A DNA stretch of 64,000 nt. Source: Octopus vulgaris (lineage: Eukaryota). The notes under the pieces are model-generated. The model searched no databases. It saw nothing but the letters and a program-made list of their open reading frames with translations, and was not told the DNA's origin. The translations under genes were made by a program, and so were the position numbers. This document shows, in pieces, positions 1 to 53,615 of this stretch; positions within the stretch are counted from its first letter, which is position 1, and every line of letters starts with the position of its first letter. The stretch lies in contig OX597819.1 in NCBI GenBank assembly GCA_951406725.2, forward strand, positions 37,014,001 through 37,078,000, read 5' to 3'.

Positions 1-502
1 GGTACTTATTTAATCGATTCCGAAAGGATGAAAGGCAAAGTCGACCTCGGCGGAATTTGAACTCAATGTAAGGACAGATGAAATACCTATTTCTTTACTA
101 CCCACAAGGGGCTAAACAGAGAGAGAACAAACAAGGACAGACAAAAAGATTAAGTCGATTATATCGACCACATTGCGAAACTGGTATTTATTTAATCGAC
201 CCGAAAGGATGAAAGGCAAAGTCGACCTCGGCGGAATTTGAACTCAGAACATAACAGCAGACGAAATACCTATTTCTTTACTGCCCACAAGAGGCTAAAC
301 ACAGAAGGGACAAACAAGGAGAGACAAACGGATCAAGTCGATTACATCGACCGTAGTGCGTAACTGATACTTAGTTTATCGACCCCGAAATTATGAAATC
401 AAAGTCGACCTCGGCGGAATTTGAACTCAGAACATAACGGCAGACGAAATACCACTAAGCATTTCGTCCGGCGTGCTAACGATTTTGCCAGCTCGCCGCC
501 TT
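1..502 (-). mobile_element. Head-to-tail multimer (at least 3 units) of tRNA-derived SINE family A
   Basis: Minus strand begins GGCGGCGAGCTGGCAAAATCGTTAGC (A-box-like) with GAGTTCAAATTCC B-box. The core GTCGACTTTGCCTTTCATCCTTTCGGGGTCGAT repeats at about 185-bp period. Confidence 0.9.
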
Positions 503-749
503 AATAAAGACTTTTATATTGACGAAACGTGTTTGTTGTCGATTATAGTAGGATAAAATCATAACAATAACAATACATATCATCGTTGTAAAATAAGGCA
601 TTTTGAAACAACATATACGTCAACAAGAAAAAAGCTAGCTGCGGGCACGTTGCTCTATGATGTTGATTCTTCGAACAGAGTGGTGACATTTAGTAGAGAT
701 GAACCGGAAGTTGTTCCTCTTCGATTACTATCGCAAACAGCAATAGCTG

Positions 750-1638: not shown

Positions 1639-1789
1639 TATATTTTTCCACTCTCTATAAAACCTTCTCTAAACTGTTCTTATGCTACTATAATAACGAT
1701 CGTAAAAATAACTAAGAGTATTATATAAGGGAAAGCTTAAATGCATGCATGTGTGTGTGTGTGTGTGTGTGTATGCATGCATGTATTTA

Positions 1790-1847
1790 TTTCAGGTAGC
1801 TCTTAAAGCTACTGGTAACATGTAACCCAGTACAGCCTGTTTCAATA
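1790..1847 (+). ncRNA. Degenerate class-1 xrRNA-like structure (second copy)
   Basis: UCAGGU...GCUACUGG-UAACAUGUAAC-CCAGUA-CAGCCUG-UUUC; P1 and P3 intact, P2 and pseudoknot eroded. Confidence 0.5.
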
Positions 1848-2120
1848 TTAGGCGGTACGAGACTACACTACATAAGCTTCCTTGGCAAGGATAGTTGTTT
1901 TCGTTGAACATCCTGCAGGACGAATAACAAAATTTGTAAAAGGTAGGATGAAGTCAATAACGTCAACGGCCAGCCATCAGTTGGGAGTGAGAGACAGCTA
2001 GACTTCGTTTATACATTTCAAGGACTACTCTACTGCAATACCTGCGGCTTCATATGCATCCCATGATGTAGACTAAGCTTTCTTTTCGAGCAAAACCATA
2101 TGTTATTTAGAGTGCTAGAT
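1790..2120 (+). mobile_element. Diverged 5' region of the RTE-related retroelement family, including the xrRNA-like head
   Basis: Collinear similarity to 14208-14600 and 53170-53615 (AAGCTTCCTTGG, CATCCTGCAGGA, GTCAACGGCCA, TTGGGAGTGA, ACCTGCGGCT, CTTTTCG). Begins right after a TG/TATG microsatellite. Confidence 0.75.
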
Positions 2121-2129
2121 TGCCCCTAT

Positions 2130-2527: not shown

Positions 2528-5500
2528 TTTCTTTAGTATATAAAAACTCAGATACAGGCATCACTTGACTGTGAGTTGCATACTATGGCTTACCGTAGCT
2601 GATAAAGACAAAACTCACTGAAAATGTGTATACACTGAAACCACGTACAGCAACATGAATATGTTGAGAATCAAAGCAAAGTTTCATGTCTATATTTTTC
2701 AAGGAAAGGGCACCGAAGCAGTCTAAGCAAAGGAAGTCCAGCTCCCAGACTTGTGCATGCTGCTTATGACTGGAAGGTTCTGGTGCATTTAAGGAAAGTG
2801 CTTATAATTCTAAGCCGTTTGGCAATAACTCACCGATGCTCTGACCACAGAGTGGTACATCGGGAAGATAACAGAAACTGAGAACTTGGAAGAAAAGGTT
2901 TAAAATATAAAGGACTTGAAAGGCGTCTTGTGAGGCACGCTAACAGTGGCAAAATTAATATAGATTTAACAGCTTTGTGTGTAATATTAATTCGCTCTTC
3001 CATAAAGCAGTTGCTTCAGTTTCAATACACGGTCTCAGATCAGCTCACTTGGTAGACAAGTACAACTCCGTATACATACGTACATATATGTATGTATGAA
3101 TTCATTAATGCATACATATACATACATATATACACACATACATATATCGTTATCAAGGCAAGTGCTGTCTCTTTCCTATTCGGTCATGCCAAACTTGTCG
3201 CTTTCACCCACATTTCACCAAATGCTAGAGGACAGAATACCTCAACTTGATCATAGCTTCTTCTTCAAGAGGGACTTAAAGAGGTGGAAAAGGGTGTCGT
3301 CGGAGAAGAAAAGACTACCTCACTGATAGAGGAAATTTCTTCATAGGCCAGCCATCGTTTGTTGCCAATGATGTCCATATGAAATGTCACGAGTCGTCGT
3401 ATATTATCAGAATTGAACTGATTTTCTCTCCTGGTTTAGCTTTGTTCGAAATGCGGGTATAATTTAGTCTTTTCATGCTGTTTTGTATCTGAGTCGAGGT
3501 CAAGCCTGATTTCTGGTACCAACAGACAATAACAGTCAGTAGAGTATTGGTTTTGACGATTTAGTTACCTCCATTCTTTTGAAATGGCCAAGCAAGCAGA
3601 GATTTCGTTGCACCAGTATCTCTCCAACACTAGAAAAGCCTGGCTTTCTCTAGAATGAATATTCCTGATCTGTCCTTATGAAGAGCATGGAGTGTGTTAA
3701 GTGAATCATCATGAAAGTTTGCAATTTTTGTACACCTATTTACGGTAAACGAAAATTATTAAAAGAACTACCTGCATTTATTTCTAGAAAGAAGAGGTGG
3801 GAAGATATTTACAACGGACTCGGACGAAAGTTCTATCGTCTCACACATAACAACAGACGCTTAGCTTAATTCCACCTGATAACAATCCTCAGATCCTGAA
3901 AGAATGAGTAGAGAATAGTACCGTCATTCTTCGTACACCTCAGGCAGCACAGAACATCCCCAGGCCATCTGCGGTCTTATTCACTTGTGAGATCTCTAAC
4001 AGTCGAAACACCTCTACGGTCATATGCGCATCATAACATTGCAGACCATGCTATGTAATTGATACTACACAAATGTTGTTAAACAACCTGTTGTTAATCA
4101 TTCACAAAAAATTGAGTTGAAATTTTAATTTCTTTAGACAACTTAATCGTATTGGGTCTATTTCGTAATTATTTTTTCTGGACGAATAGCATGCAAATAT
4201 CTCGCAGCAAATTTAATGTGAAAAATTATTTTTCTACGAAATCAAGAGGATATCGTTTTAAAATATTGGCACACATTTTCTGTCAATGTTTGAGTTACAA
4301 TTTAAATTTAGATTTAAAATTCATATCTCTTAAAAAGTAGTTTTCTATGATATTAATGGCATCATTATGGCAGTTTTGCGTTGACAGTCAATTAATAAGT
4401 TTTTACTGCGTAATACAGCTCAGACATTTTGTTTCCTATTATCTGAATATATTCCATTCAGTCATATTACATATTTAAATAACTTCAATTTGGTGGTAAT
4501 AATATCTTATATTTTTCCTTAAATTTCATACTATTCTGCATCAAAGAACTTATATTTCAGGAATATGTTTTTCCTATTATATTCTATACACTCCTCCCAA
4601 ATCTGAGCAAGATGCAATTTGACAAAATGTCATGTTACATCCAGTTTAGGAATTAAGCATACAAAAAGCATTGGGCTGTACAATGTAATCATTGTTTAAA
4701 AGCAATAAAATTGTTATGCTCATTTTATAGCAATCGACCATAAGAAATTGAAAATTTCCTTCAAACATTTATGTCTTCAAAAAACTAATAAAAAAATTAC
4801 AGAGGATTATTTTATTCCAGATACTTTATCAGAAAAAAAAAACTAAATGGTAATGGTTGAAATGTTGTTTATCATTGGTTTGTTCAATCATGGCTGACCT
4901 GGGTATAAACAACAACCTAAATGTTTTGTAATTCTTGCTCAGAAAGAGGAGTGCCCAAGATCCTTCAGGGTCTCCGACACTGATGGCAAGAAGGAAGGAA
5001 ATTACACTCAAATCAGAGACCAAGTTCGAATGTTTGCAACAATGAAAGTTTGTTAAAGGCATTTGAATCAGATGGTGGTGTTAAACCGGGCCACGTATTA
5101 AGTCTACCCCCAAAAAATTTGAATACAAAAAGTTAGAATGAATAGCAAAAGGCAACTTATCCAATGACCTAACTGTTCCGTTAATGCAGTCTTGGACTAG
5201 TCCTTTATACTATCAATCCCGAAAAGATAGAATGCAAAGTTGGCCTCGGCGTATTTTAAACTGCAAGATACTTATGTTTTAAAAAGCAGATGTGTTAAGC
5301 GTGTCTAAAAGACAACAACAATAACAAGGTGATACACAAGTTGACAAAATTATATTTTAAAACACAATGATTTCAATTCAAATATTAAAGATATTTAAAC
5401 ACAATTATTTTTCATTGGTTTCTTTTCCCCCTATTCTGAAGACTAGCATCACTGAAAATAACTTGCATTTCAGAACACACTATTACAGTGTATTTTTGTT

Positions 5501-13735: not shown

Positions 13736-14207
13736 TGAAAGAAGTATCTCATACTAAGTATTATAACACTATTCATAAATTTATTAATATATGTCTCATC
13801 CTACCATTTATTATAAATTACGTTTTGTCTGGGACTTCATATTTCATCTGACTGTATATTGAATCAGTTAATATTTCACATTACAATTAATCAAATTCCC
13901 GAGTTTTCCTTTTCTTTGTATACAGAAATCATTGTAAAGATAATGATTTATTTTCCTCACTACTGATGTATTTCAATTGACTAAAATGTCTTTTCTCTGC
14001 ACATGAGGTATTTTAGCGGCCAATTTTCTTTTGGCATTTGCTGTAAAAATTAATTGCTTGAAAACTGTTAGTGACTTAGCTTATATCCATATCATCTCTT
14101 TTTGATCATTTGATCTTGTATGTGCGTATGTATGTATGTATGTATGTATGTATGTATGTACGTATGTACGTATGTATGTATGTATGTATGTATGTATGTA
14201 TGTATGT

Positions 14208-14693
14208 ATGGTCGGGTCGTCGGTGACTAAACCGGCAACCCCACCAAGCTTGCTTGGTGAGGAGGGTGTTTATTGGACACCCTGCGGGATGAGAAACAAA
14301 ACCCGTCAAATGGCGGAGGAAATCTTGAAAGTCAACGGCCATCCAATAAATGTATTAAGGCTGTATCATGCGCGGGGACATAGAAATAATCAGACTGAAT
14401 ACCCGATCGCGCGGTTAAACGATTGGGAGTGAATGACTCCTAGCCTTTGTTAGGGCATCCTTCTAGGAGAAGATAGCTCAGGTAACTGGGATAACTCCGA
14501 CATAAAACCTGCGGCTCAGTGGTTACCGATGATGTTGACTTGTTCTTCTTTTCGGATTATGGCTGCTGTTGCTTAGTGAGTGGTATTGACTCAGTGCTCA
14601 GCCTTTACTCACTTCTTGCACAGGCATTGCACGATAACAATATTGATTAAGCTTCGTGCAATGGCCATACTCGATAACGAGGGGGCAGCCACC
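14208..14693 (+). mobile_element. RTE-derived bipartite non-autonomous retroelement, 5'-truncated, in (TATG)n
   Basis: Closely similar to the reverse complement of 53072-53560. The 3' tail equals the RTE LINE tail at 53734-53777. No tRNA head. Confidence 0.88.
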
Positions 14694-17385
14694 ATGTATA
14701 TATGTATGTATGTACGTACGTACGTTTTTATGTATTATGTATACGTTTATGCGTATGTGCAAGTACTACTAACACCAGGTCAGTTCTTACCGAAAGGTAC
14801 GATTGGCTGGTTATGATCCACATATTTATTGTTCTAGATATTGCATATAACTCTAATTCCCTGAAAAAGCATACTGCACACAACTACATGCGGTGTCGGA
14901 TTGTATGGGAATAAGCATGACAACCTGAACATATATTTTTTCCACCGTCTATGGTTGTAAATTGTGATTTTGGATACAGCAGCGATGAACAAGGCAGATT
15001 GAATCGGAGCACGATATTTGTGTCCTGCTTTTAATAGCATTCATACCTCGCGTTAATATTTTAGAATTCAATGCGTATTAACACCGCATCTGTGTGTTTT
15101 TGTGTTTTATATTTGCCGGGTTGAGAATCAAAGAGAGCATATTTTTGTAAGTTCCGGAGGCGATTGTGTTATAGTATGTTGCATATGGGTCTCTACGTTT
15201 TGAAAATGATTTTGCATGTGAGGATTGTGGTGGTTGAAGTTTGGTATGGCAAACGAGTGAACTATTTTTCTTACTATAACTGTTACTATTTTTTGTTTCG
15301 GTCGTCTTTATCTCCGATTTAACCTTGGGTGTTCTCTAAGAGACGACAATACTGCAATTTTAACCCCAGGAAGGCATCTTCTTAGCTAGTTTATTCAGTG
15401 CACTTTCCGCACTCGATTTTTATTGCAAGCGGGATATTTATTGCATGCCACTTTTGTTTCGTTGTTTACACTGTGTGTAAGTATAATTTGATGAGGTCTA
15501 CGAATGTATAAAACATTGTTTAGTGTATTCTTATAGTTTGTTGTGGTTTATTTTGTGTGGTACTGTACTCAATGAGGGATCTAATGTATTGCTTTTATGC
15601 TGTAATCGATGTTTCTGTCAGTCAAAAGGCGTAATTGTGAATAATCTGAGTGACTGAGCGTAGATTTTCCTTCTATACAATGACTTTTGTGTATGTTGCG
15701 GATGTTGTGGGAGCATTGTATATAACTCTTGATATTATTTACTATGACTATGGTATGTTTATGCTATTGAGGGTGGCAGCTTGTTGTAGTTGTTCCCTAT
15801 TATTCCTGGTAAGAAAGGAAACTTGGTCCGTCATGGAGCAAAGTTTCTAAGAGATTAATGTAGGTTTGGAGTTTTTCAAATGTATTTTCAGAAGAGTGAG
15901 AGGATGCCTGTGTGATGTCATGTGCTTATGAAGCTGGGCATATGCTTTCAGGAGCTGTGGATTATCATGTAGATATAAGTTGAATGACAGAATAAGTAGA
16001 TCCTTGTGATATTCTGTTCGAAAAATGAGAGATTCTAGAATTATAATTACTGCACATTACATAGTCCAGTCAGAATTATGGATTAGGATGAGACCTGCCA
16101 CTGGTACCATGTAAATTTGTACTACTTGTTCCATGATCGAGTGGTCGGCGATTAAACTGGCTCTCCCACTCGAGTACCTTGCTACTCCTGTGAGGAGGTT
16201 GCCTGGACTCCCAGTAAGACTAAAAACAAGACCTATTGAAGAGTGAATGAGCTCCTTGTGGGCCAATGGCCATTCAGCTGGGGAACGATCTCTGCCAAGA
16301 AAACACTACGAGAAAGTCAGAACTCAGTAAGGCTATGGTTTCATCCAGTGAGAATGTTCGCGCTTAATTGGGAAGTCTTTTGTTGGAATGTCATCAACAC
16401 TCTGCAAAAGCGTACGATATATGACATAACGAAAAACATTGCATAGGCTGGCGATCTTGCAAGTAGTTTGCTACTCAGGCCTTTGTGTAGTTTCTTAAGT
16501 AAATGTTAAGCATAACAGCATAATTGAGTGGGTAGCGGGGAATGGAGTGAAAAGTTTTCTTATTGTTGAGGGCAATTAGAATGGTACGTATGTGAGGATT
16601 TTCTGAAACTGTCATCTATTCTTGTATTCGACTCCTTTGTAGTTTGATTCAATGACAAGATTTAGAATGAAGGATTTGTGGGTTTGTAGTATCACGACTA
16701 AAGCGTCCTAAAATTGTTGAATATGTATATTTTAGTGCACTGGTATTGCGGTGCATGTTTAATTGGTTGGGTTTCGTAGGGTTTAAGAATTGCTATACGT
16801 TTTAATTTCAAAATTCTGGAAATTCGACGAAGTTTCATAGAATAGTTGTTGGAGAGCATATTGATTCCTTCGGGTCCTCAACGTTATAGGTGTATTTGTG
16901 ATTTTCGTAAACTCAGACGTTTTTGAATTTTTACATACCCTTATCACATTTCCGGGCACCTGATGGGCAGAAGGGGTTTACGTCATGGCAAAAGGTGCAT
17001 AGTGTTGTGTTCATGTCTTTATAGTGTTGTTTTTGACATGATATTTAAGAAATTCCTGATGAGTTCATTTCCTTCCTGTGCAAGTATTATGCCATTTAAA
17101 GTCAATGCGCCATGAGGTGTGATATAATTGCTGTTATTGTTGATAATGATTTTGCTAATAAATGTGGATAATGGCTCATAGTTCGTTGTGTAATTTATGT
17201 GGAATAACAAGCTTTCCTTTTTCCTAGTTTTTAATGTTTTATATTCTATATCTTATTGTTTTAAATTTTTGATTTTTGTTTTATTAAGTCATATGTCCTT
17301 TCATTGTTTTGTTTTATCAAGTTGTCTGTCTTGTAACTGCTTCTTTCTGAAGATGTAAATTTGCGGACAATATTCAGGTCAACAA

Positions 17386-51590: not shown

Positions 51591-52269
51591 ACTCTGAAAG
51601 TGATACACATCTAAAACTGATACATATACACACATGGATGCTTATATACATACATACATACATACATACATACATACATACATACATACATACATACATA
51701 CATACATACATACATACACATACGTAGATGTGTACATACCTACATACACACATACAGACCTGAAATTTGGTGGGAGGGTACAATTCGATTACATTGACCC
51801 CAGTGCTTCACAGGTACATATTTTAAGTCCACCTGAGCGGAATCTGAACTCAGAACGGAAAAAAACGGACGAAATGCCGTTAAGCATTTTTCCGGTATGC
51901 AAACGATTCTGCCAGTTTGCCGTGCTGAAATTTAAAGCTAGCAGCTTGCACGACACCGCTAAGACAAGCTAGAGCAAGATCTTCATCTTCGCAATAAAGT
52001 GGGTGTTATTTTGGACTTTCCTTCCGTTAGAGAGATGTATAAACAAACAACTGGGGTCCCTTACTTTCGGCTGTTAATTGGTTGTTGACTCCACTGAGTT
52101 CCTCAGTCATTTTACAGTTTTTGTTTTTCGCTTTGTAGGGTGTCTAATGAAAAGCACATACAACCATGTATGTATGTATACATACTTAAGTACGTATGTA
52201 CATGCATACAATGATACACACATATGTACATACATAAATATGTGCACACATACATTTGTATCTACTTGC

Positions 52270-53071: not shown

Positions 53072-53615
53072 ATGGTGGCTGCCCCCTCGTTATCGAGTAT
53101 GGCCATTGCACGAAGCTTAATCAATGTTGTTATCGTGCAATGCCTGTGCAAGAAGATTATTTTTAAAGTGAGGAAAGGCTGTGCACTTAGTCAATCCCAC
53201 TCACTAAGCAACAGCAGCCATAATCCGAAAAGAAGAACAAGTCAACATCATCGGTAATCACTGAGCCGCAGGTTTTATATCGGAGTTATCCCAGTTACCT
53301 GAGTTACCTTCTCATAGAAGGATGCCCTAACAAAGACTAGGAGTCCTTCACTCCCAATGGTTTAACCGCGCGATTGGGTATTCAGTCCGATTATTTCTAT
53401 GTCCCCGCGCATGATACAGTCTTAAGACATTTATTGGATGGCTGTTGACTCTCAAGAGTTCCACCGCCCTTTGACGGGCTTTGTTTTTCATCCCACAGGG
53501 TGTCCAATAAACACCCTCCTCACCAAGCAAGCTTGGTAGGGTCGCCGACGACCCGACCATGCAACAGGTTGTACTGGGTTACATGCTACCAGTAGCACTC
53601 GAAAGTGACCTGACA
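53072..53615 (-). mobile_element. Apparently full-length RTE-derived bipartite non-autonomous retroelement in (TATG)n
   Basis: Homologous to 14208-14693 plus an extra 55-nt structured 5' head; RTE LINE tail; CATA repeats on both sides. Confidence 0.9.
53558..53615 (-). ncRNA. Class 1a xrRNA-like three-way-junction pseudoknot at the element 5' end
   Basis: UGU-CAGGU-CACU(UUCG)AGUG-C-UACUGG(UAGCAUGUAAC)CCAGUA-CA-ACCUG-UUGCAUG; P1, P2, P3 and L3/3' pseudoknot all pair by manual folding. Confidence 0.72.

What the first reader, a model, noticed from the sequence alone, without database searches (positions are those of the whole stretch)
1790..1847. Second, diverged xrRNA-like head with a conserved core
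An older relative starts UUCAGGUAGCUCUUAAAGCUACUGGUAACAUGUAACCCAGUACAGCCUG. P3, its loop and the CA junction are almost identical to the 53.6-kb copy, while P2 (the variable arm in viral xrRNAs) and the downstream body have diverged far more. P1 is kept via CAGGU/GCCUG. It again starts directly after a TG/TATG repeat, so two subfamilies share the same 5' boundary and fold. This argues for selection rather than chance. The 5' G and the pseudoknot are damaged in this copy.
Basis: partly seen in the sequence, partly recalled or inferred. Interest (0 to 1): 0.7.

Follow-up and report, generated by a model that had tools for sequence, protein, structure and literature searches.

The report
Virus-style RNA knot heads animal retrotransposons
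This is a worn-out copy of the very start of a jumping gene whose family, here and in related repeats from other sequence sets, keeps through compensating mutations a small RNA fold matching the exonuclease-blocking knot of flaviviruses, which likely sets and protects the front end of the element's RNA and would, if the assay confirms it, be such a knot native to an animal genome rather than a virus.

Summary
The stretch is real, but this copy is not itself evidence of selection. It is the decayed first 58 nt of an RTE-clade LINE 5' UTR, about 21% off its subfamily consensus in head and body alike. That consensus restores the 5' G, P2 and the pseudoknot core.

The family is the finding. Its head starts full-length RTE copies and more than 1,100 young heads, mostly on short derivatives. 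Nine subfamily consensuses fold as a flavivirus subclass-1a xrRNA three-way junction. A metagenome scan found the same head on nine further repeat families (four loci with an RTE ORF downstream), with compensatory changes in P2, P3 and the loop pseudoknot (swap tests p 2e-4 to 4e-3). One sub-lineage with changes at both predicted base-triple U's carries extra upstream sequence.

Best reading: an Xrn-resistant knot that sets or protects the RNA 5' end, the job HDV-like ribozymes do in other LINEs. Resistance is untested, Rfam scores are sub-threshold (15-24 bits), and the core bases in metagenome hits were fixed by my pattern. My literature searches and this scan's notes showed no such report.

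The parts
1741..1790 (+). TG/TATG microsatellite flank (insertion target context)
   Evidence: sequence; most heads in this genome follow such repeats
1791..1848 (+). Decayed xrRNA-like head of an old RTE subfamily (OldB): P1 1793-1797/1835-1839, damaged P2 1798-1808, junction C 1809, P3 1810-1815/1827-1832, loop 1816-1826, CA 1833-1834, broken pseudoknot strand 1843-1846
   Evidence: no Rfam xrRNA hit for this copy
1849..2124 (+). Rest of the OldB 5' UTR fragment, cut off where an unrelated repeat begins near 2125
   Evidence: alignment to OldB consensus; self-BLAST
53074..53614 (-). Young bipartite non-autonomous copy: intact head plus about 490 nt of 5' UTR joined to the last about 42 nt of the RTE and an ATGT-repeat tail
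   Evidence: Rfam Flavivirus_SLIV 15.4 bits
53730..54065 (-). 3' fragment of the autonomous RTE LINE (zinc-finger end of the ORF, short 3' UTR shared with the short element)
14207..14706 (+). Young bipartite copy that lacks the head (5'-truncated); start approximate
16096..16280 (+). Heavily decayed copy resembling the short-P2 subfamily (F198)
52044..52159 (-). Headless fragment of old subfamily OldA

Best explanation
The stretch is a decayed copy of the first 58 bases of an RTE-clade LINE 5' UTR, and the family's intact head keeps a three-way junction plus loop pseudoknot matching flavivirus subclass-1a xrRNA, which likely blocks 5'-to-3' exoribonucleases and so likely sets and protects the 5' end of the element RNA. 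Shown: position at the element start, family structure, covariation. Inferred: RNA made by read-through from an upstream promoter, or decapped, would be chewed by Xrn1/Xrn2 until the knot stops it a few bases before the first G. That would leave a stable template of defined start, which reverse transcriptase can still copy from the 3' side. Short bipartite derivatives keep the head because they need the same protection. The window copy has lost the 5' G, P2 and half the pseudoknot and is predicted to be non-functional.
For: Position: 8 of 20 long RTE copies picked by an RT-region probe align from position 1-3 of the head; RVT_1 domain; 1,151 exact young-head matches vs 0 control. Fold: RNAalifold on 9 subfamily consensuses gives P1 (5 bp), P2, single C, P3 (6 bp), CA. 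Rfam Flavivirus_SLIV has the highest bit score for 4 intact heads (15.4, 19.6, 22.6, 23.8 bits); xrRNA sites of two 10.8-kb flavivirus-type contigs score 24-30. Covariation: P2 pair 2 is A-U, G-U or G-C across subfamilies and two subfamilies insert 6 more pairs in P2. Across 10 families, swap tests give P2 p 2e-4, P3 p 4e-4, pseudoknot p 4e-3. 7 of 10 P3/pseudoknot pairs change on both sides, 0 of 500 shuffles reach this, and slid controls pair at most 45% vs 92%. Only 1 of 58 background hits has both stems. Four metagenome loci have an RTE ORF downstream on the same strand. Natural experiment: the only lineage with shared upstream sequence (up to about 0.9 kb, staggered starts, different 3' flanks in the two compared) has 3 lineage-wide changes in 194 nt, two at the predicted triple U's (post hoc P 5e-4 to 0.02). 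Precedent: 5' HDV-like ribozymes process and likely protect LINE RNA (PMC5786205, PMC12222951, passages); reverse transcriptase passes xrRNAs from the 3' side (PMC4829329, passage).
Against: No nuclease assay and no RNA 5'-end data: only assembled contigs were available. All Rfam scores are far below the 54.5-bit cut-off (E 0.06-1), the general Flavi_xrRNA model gave no hit on the heads, and a genome search with the SLIV model found nothing (64 of 84,788 candidates scored). Single-sequence folds are not unusually stable (z -1.6 to +0.2; a viral control gives +0.7) and often prefer other structures. In metagenome hits the 5' GU, P1, junction C and first three P3 pairs were fixed by my pattern, so their conservation there is circular. 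P1 never covaries among the retroelement heads. 2 of 10 families (L475, L534) have only 2 contiguous Watson-Crick pseudoknot pairs, and 17 of 58 background hits reach 4 or more. The next 130 nt are also conserved and structured, so the head is part of a larger leader. The extension lineage is a single event; copy L398 has both changes but no extension, and L413/L414 have one change and start at the head. Family J shows no conserved upstream bases beyond -1 T in 21 of 41 and a purine at -2 in 32 of 41, so the TAT before this genome's heads is probably target-derived. One paper's legend places the triple's pair in P1 rather than P3 (PMC4829329).
Confidence: 0.68

Rival explanations
1. The element is transcribed from an internal polymerase II promoter starting at about the first G. 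The head is a real xrRNA but acts only as a stabiliser after decapping; it does not create the 5' end.
For: Insertions start at or within a few bases of the first G, as any fixed start site would give. About 195 nt of leader are conserved across subfamilies while bodies are swapped. Acquiring an upstream promoter would also relax the head in the extension lineage. Bipartite RTE derivatives are proposed to be Pol II transcripts (PMC5786205, passage).
Against: Relaxation alone does not predict that 2 of 3 fixed changes hit the predicted triple. In family J, 5 of 6 candidate target-site duplications end 2-5 nt before the first G (2 ambiguous; 14 copies examined), which fits leftover leader, though non-templated addition fits too.
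Confidence: 0.2
2. The fold is selected as RNA but for another job (binding of the ORF protein, second-strand or 5' junction formation, or translation initiation) and does not resist exonucleases.
For: The downstream 130 nt also covary in several hairpins; the pseudoknot is weak in 2 of 10 families; free energies are unremarkable.
Against: In subfamilies found through body similarity, the positions known to matter for Xrn1 resistance (5' GU, junction C, A-U second pair of P3, junction C after P3) are invariant, while P2 length varies from 2 to 10 bp. P2 length also varies (3 to 7 bp) among the viral hits.
Confidence: 0.09
3. The resemblance is chance, or a non-functional relic of a captured virus fragment conserved only as DNA promoter sequence.
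For: Sub-threshold Rfam scores; P1 invariant without covariation; this copy has no hit.
Against: Compensatory changes in P2, P3 and the pseudoknot across 10 families cannot arise from DNA-level constraint; the match starts at the element's first base.
Confidence: 0.03

Closest known systems
Flavivirus subclass 1a xrRNA (mosquito-borne flaviviruses; Rfam RF01415 Flavivirus_SLIV, RF03547 Flavi_xrRNA)
   Same: 5' GU before a 5-bp P1, variable P2, single C between P2 and P3, P3 with A-U as second pair, CA junction, loop-to-downstream pseudoknot of 4-6 bp (features from PMC8374639, PMC8571300, PMC7749634).
   Different: Lies at the first base of a cellular retrotransposon 5' UTR, not in a viral 3' UTR. 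Last P1 pair is U-A (viral hits C-G) and first P3 pair U-A (flavivirus hits C-G). Scores below Rfam cut-offs; activity untested.
HDV-like (and twister-variant) ribozymes at the 5' ends of RTE, R2, Ingi and other non-LTR elements
   Same: Structured RNA at the exact 5' end, retained in bipartite non-autonomous derivatives, proposed to define and protect the RNA end (PMC5786205, PMC12222951 passages; PMC8501958 listing and start of abstract).
   Different: No ribozyme family in Rfam scans of heads or a whole 5' UTR. A home-made HDV descriptor finds none at the 5' end (no positive control). The end would be made by a host exonuclease, not self-cleavage.
Bipartite non-autonomous RTE LINEs (Bov-A, RTESINE1/2, WALLSI3; PMC5786205)
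   Same: 5' UTR start joined to the extreme 3' end and a microsatellite tail.
   Different: No xrRNA or other RNA fold for their heads appeared in the passages read.
RTE-2_OV, a transcribed octopus RTE (PMC9115989, passages)
   Same: RTE clade, single EN-RT-C2H2 ORF of similar size.
   Different: Reported 5' UTR about 600 nt and microsatellite directly after the ORF, versus about 780 nt and a roughly 50-nt 3' UTR here. Motifs not found in the supplements searched (files 5-8 of 8 not searched). Identity not established.

Membership tests
Subclass 1a xrRNA | Three-way junction with 5-bp P1 and 4-8-bp P3 | tested here: met
   RNAalifold on 9 consensuses; P3 5-7 bp with covariation. The window copy keeps P1 and P3.
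Subclass 1a xrRNA | Single C between P2 and P3 | tested here: met
   Invariant in 9 subfamily consensuses; fixed by pattern in metagenome hits.
Subclass 1a xrRNA | PK1: 5' G pairing with the junction C after P3 | tested here: inconclusive
   Both bases invariant in consensuses but no covariation; G lost in the window copy.
Subclass 1a xrRNA | U-A-U base triple (5' U with an A-U pair) | tested here: inconclusive
   All three bases invariant in consensuses; no covariation. Placing the pair in P3 is recalled and inferred from the G25-C39 numbering in PMC7749634; a legend in PMC4829329 says P1.
Subclass 1a xrRNA | PK2: L3 loop pairing with downstream strand, 2-7 bp | tested here: met
   4-6 Watson-Crick pairs in 8 of 10 families with compensatory changes, swap p 0.004; all 4 pairs change on both sides. 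Not met in the window copy.
Subclass 1a xrRNA | Rfam gathering score (RF01415 54.5 bits; RF03547 37 bits) | tested here: not met
   15.4-23.8 bits on RF01415, no RF03547 hit; some viral sites also fail at 24-30 bits.
Subclass 1a xrRNA | Halt site 5-6 nt before the base of P1 | tested here: inconclusive
   Would be -3/-4. T-A-T is enriched at -3..-1 in this genome (126, 128, 147 of 162) but is confounded by microsatellite targets; family J shows 0-5 extra nt.
Subclass 1a xrRNA | Ring-like 3D fold and structure-dependent Xrn1 resistance | not testable with these tools
   Needs assay and structure.
RTE-clade non-LTR retrotransposon | Single ORF with endonuclease, RT and C-terminal zinc fingers; microsatellite tail | tested here: met
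   homologues carry the same domain set. Clade name from this anatomy and recall; no tree built.
Bipartite non-autonomous RTE | Only the 5' and 3' ends of the autonomous LINE | tested here: met
   Young element positions 1-488 match the 5' UTR and 487-528 the 3' end. The window copy's 3' part is missing.
HDV-like ribozyme | Nested double pseudoknot with catalytic C at the 5' end | tested here: not met
   No Rfam ribozyme hit; descriptor negative in 10 of 11 sequences, one internal hit in OldA (no positive control).

The most novel reading that the evidence does not exclude
A widespread group of animal RTE LINEs and their short derivatives use a true subclass-1a xrRNA, in place of a ribozyme or a fixed promoter start, to let host Xrn enzymes carve their RNA out of read-through transcripts. 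These would be native cellular xrRNAs present in thousands of copies per genome, sharing ancestry (by capture in one direction or the other) with the same motif in flaviviruses and in noda/tombus-like RNA viruses.
Probability: 0.45. Interest if true: 0.95.

Novelty: new variant of a known kind. Interest (0 to 1): 0.85.

Why it matters
A 2021 review states that xrRNAs had been characterised only in viruses and names cellular xrRNAs as an open question (PMC8374639, section 7); a 2024 review table still lists them as viral (PMC11499389, passage). Here is a concrete, 60-nt, directly testable candidate family with natural variants and a natural loss-of-function lineage. If active, it adds a third route, besides internal promoters and ribozymes, by which LINEs define their 5' end. 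It also implies that thousands of genomic copies could create stable 5'-phosphate RNAs inside host transcripts, raises a virus-retrotransposon exchange question, and offers natural 5' stabilisers for RNA-templated gene insertion, where 5' stability may be limiting (PMC12222951, passages). The window copy itself is only a dead member.

Tried and rejected
Rfam scan of the whole window: only microsatellite-driven matches, no xrRNA or ribozyme. Rfam on the 1790 copy: nothing relevant. Genome search with RF01415: no match, with only 64 candidates scored. 800 kb of random genome held family fragments in only 2 loci, so sampling was replaced by targeted searches. Selection on individual copies: rejected; head and body decay equally in Y, OldA, OldB and F198. 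The head excess in LP2a, LP2b and G1 is explained by how those copies were picked. A C at P1 position 5 as a compensatory subfamily trait: rejected; these are sporadic changes with an unchanged partner. MAFFT misplaced the long-P2 insertion, so the head-vs-body count was redone with structure anchors. Single-strand folding z-scores were uninformative; the L291 row had wrong coordinates and is ignored. HDV-like and hammerhead readings: no support (hammerhead judged by eye and Rfam only). Initiator-like reading of the first bases: a start at the A would drop the first three bases, which copies keep (inference). RNA run contigs hold the head but cannot show ends or strand. Unassigned metagenome hits (L464/L468, L457/L524, L519, L459) and virus hits were left out of the covariation counts. 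Literature searches for a prior report returned none; subscription journals and Repbase/Dfam notes were not searchable.

Full report
Observation. The quoted sequence is at 1790-1839 after a TG/TATG repeat and is homologous to the minus-strand copy starting at 53614 (70.6% over 170 nt). P1, the junction C, P3, its loop and the CA junction are intact; the 5' G, three of four P2 pairs and two of four pseudoknot bases are not. The genome (2.8 Gb, 227 contigs) looks octopus-like; this is inference from size and repeat landscape, not tested.

What the element is. The 53.6-kb copy is a roughly 540-nt repeat whose head has 1,151 exact matches against 0 for the reversed control. Its first 488 nt match the 5' UTR and its last 42 nt the 3' end of a roughly 4.1-kb LINE with endonuclease, RT and zinc fingers. 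Of 20 long copies fetched through an RT-region probe, 8 align from position 1-3 of the head, 5 start further inside the UTR and 7 start later. So the head is the first sequence of an RTE-type LINE, and the short form is a bipartite derivative as described in PMC5786205 (passages). The clade name rests on anatomy and recall; no tree was built.

The window copy. It has no close sibling among the 40 scored matches (next-best match 71%; 66-80% over all others) and clusters with 17 others by body sequence (OldB). It differs from their consensus at 13/62 head, 32/130 next and 23/122 further positions; the P3-versus-P2 contrast is within chance (P 0.10 and 0.28) and its P2 changes are private. Among the 8 head-bearing OldB copies found through the window query, 7 have the 5' G. 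Copies of Y, OldA, OldB and F198 decay equally in head and body.

Subfamilies in this genome. Targeted searches gave nine consensuses from 4-26 copies each (G1-G3 and part of OldA/OldB were picked by head patterns). RNAalifold returns the three-way junction. With structure anchors, 41 of 51 core columns are invariant against 71 of the next 132 (P 0.001, lineages not independent). P2 pair 2 is A-U, G-U or G-C, P2 runs from 2 to 10 bp, and a loop change extends the pseudoknot from 4 to 6 bp in two subfamilies; the same change is the majority letter in one invertebrate RNA run (X20). P1 and P3 do not vary here, so this genome alone could not exclude a DNA-level constraint. The next 130 nt are also conserved and contain covarying hairpins.

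Other genomes. One metagenome pattern scan returned 121 stretches (120 delivered; stopped after 12 of 64 parts, about 650 estimated). I sorted them by eye and regex into family J (41), other structured hits (21) and background (58). J is a roughly 235-nt repeat that starts at the head, has unrelated flanks and ends in a CAA-type tail. L425, L454, L443 and L496 have RTE ORF matches 400-800 nt downstream on the same strand. L425, L454, L475 and L505 match this genome's leader at 72-82% over 79-197 nt. With one representative for each of 10 families, swapping 5' and 3' strands among families gives P2 pairs 2-5 39 vs 29.4 (p 2e-4), P3 pairs 4-6 29 vs 24.8 (p 4e-4) and pseudoknot 40 vs 31.9 (p 4e-3). 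These positions were free in the pattern. On an alignment of 12 real copies, 91.7% of cells pair, 7 of 10 pairs change on both sides, 0 of 500 shuffles reach this, and slid controls give at most 45% (relatedness inflates this control, and three P3 pairs were fixed by the pattern). Against: two families have only 2 contiguous pseudoknot pairs, 17 of 58 background hits reach 4 or more pseudoknot pairs, and only 18 of 41 J copies individually keep both stems; 1 of 58 background hits does. Hosts of these contigs were not identified.

Comparison with viral xrRNAs. Flavivirus_SLIV has the highest bit score for four intact heads, at 15.4-23.8 bits with E 0.06-1 and a cut-off of 54.5. xrRNA sites of two 10.8-kb contigs with Flavivirus_DB elements score 24-30, others 56-71. 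Element by element the heads align with these viral sites and show the subclass 1a features listed in PMC8374639 (parts 1-3 of 5 read), PMC8571300, PMC7749634, PMC8078501 and PMC5760640 (passages). The location of the triple's A-U pair in P3 is recalled and consistent with the numbering in PMC7749634; a legend in PMC4829329 (passages) says P1. The same motif occurs just after ORFs in three small RNA-virus-like contigs, with the U-A first P3 pair seen in the LINE heads.

5' boundary. In this genome 126, 128 and 147 of 162 heads have T, A, T at -3 to -1; among 29 with non-microsatellite flanks the counts are 17, 20 and 22, with no bias at -4. That equals the 5-6 nt between halt site and P1 in PMC5760640, but target preference explains it as well, and family J lacks it. 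In J, 6 of 14 copies with an intact 3' end had a 7-10-nt candidate duplication, ending 0, 2, 2, 3, 4 and 5 nt before the first G, two of them ambiguous. This is weak support.

Natural experiment. Only 3 of 162 heads shared upstream sequence, all of one lineage. A search for its diagnostic change gave 23 loci; 9 carry the shared extension of 59 to about 935 nt with staggered starts, two of them probably one duplication, and 3' flanks differ in the two compared. In 11 lineage copies, 194 nt hold three lineage-wide changes: position 42 (11/11; 9 of these selected on it), position 2 (9/11) and position 83 (9/11). Positions 2 and 42 are the two U's of the predicted triple (post hoc P 5e-4; 0.004 with 8 critical sites; 0.02 counting only unselected changes). 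This fits loss of trimming, but it is one event, and L398, L413 and L414 carry one or both changes without the extension.

Mechanism. Shown: location, fold potential, covariation. Inferred: Xrn resistance (about 0.8), and a role in making or protecting the template's 5' end (0.68 overall; 0.45 for trimming from read-through RNA specifically). Precedent for the job comes from 5' ribozymes of LINEs (PMC5786205, PMC12222951, passages). No ribozyme was found here. A 5'-phosphate RNA would need internal initiation or a capped pool for translation; this was not tested.

Novelty. Searches for xrRNA with retrotransposon, LINE, transposon or cellular terms gave no such report in the listings. PMC8374639 calls cellular xrRNAs open; PMC11499389, PMC13161572 and PMC10520033 (passages) and PMC13282606 (part 1 of 3) add none. 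PMC9115989 (passages) describes an octopus RTE without a 5' fold in the passages seen; four of its eight supplements were not searched. The library lacks most subscription journals. This scan's notes hold no xrRNA finding. Verdict: a known viral fold in a new cellular setting; interest 0.85 for the family, with the window copy as a dead member.

Noticed in passing
L386:4078-4121, L387:1497-1540, L393:1-43 (minus), L437:2703-2755 and 3039-3082: Subclass-1a-like xrRNA motifs just after ORFs in small RNA-virus-like contigs (RdRp- and capsid-like ORFs judged by eye), tandem in L437; L387/L437 have the same P2 stem as the old LINE subfamilies.
   Followed up: partly
window 53420-53557 (minus); leader positions about 60-195: The 130 nt after the head form several hairpins with compensatory changes between subfamilies and are conserved in distant RTEs; a candidate translation, promoter or protein-binding module.
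   Followed up: partly
L405, L409, L415 upstream 0.9 kb: The longest extensions end at about the same point, suggesting an acquired upstream start site for that RTE lineage.
   Followed up: partly
L418-L537 (family J, 41 loci): A roughly 235-nt SINE-like repeat with an xrRNA-like head, no obvious tRNA part and a CAA tail; partner LINE not identified.
   Followed up: partly
L464, L468, L457, L524, L519, L459: Well-paired xrRNA-like motifs with a C-G last P1 pair, in contigs of unknown kind; upstream sequence is shared within pairs, so they are not at a repeat boundary.
   Followed up: no
window 1-64000 vs L061-L140: The window holds 5 relatives of the family in 64 kb, whereas 800 kb of random genome held fragments in only 2 loci; insertions cluster, often in ATGT-repeat tails of earlier copies.
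   Followed up: partly
L030:1483-1990: Chimeric copy: young head and leader joined to the body of the long-P2 subfamily, suggesting template switching near position 195.
   Followed up: no
window 1-505, 1400-1660, 2125-2526: Abundant unrelated short repeats, one in a 183-bp tandem array and one truncating the studied copy.
   Followed up: no
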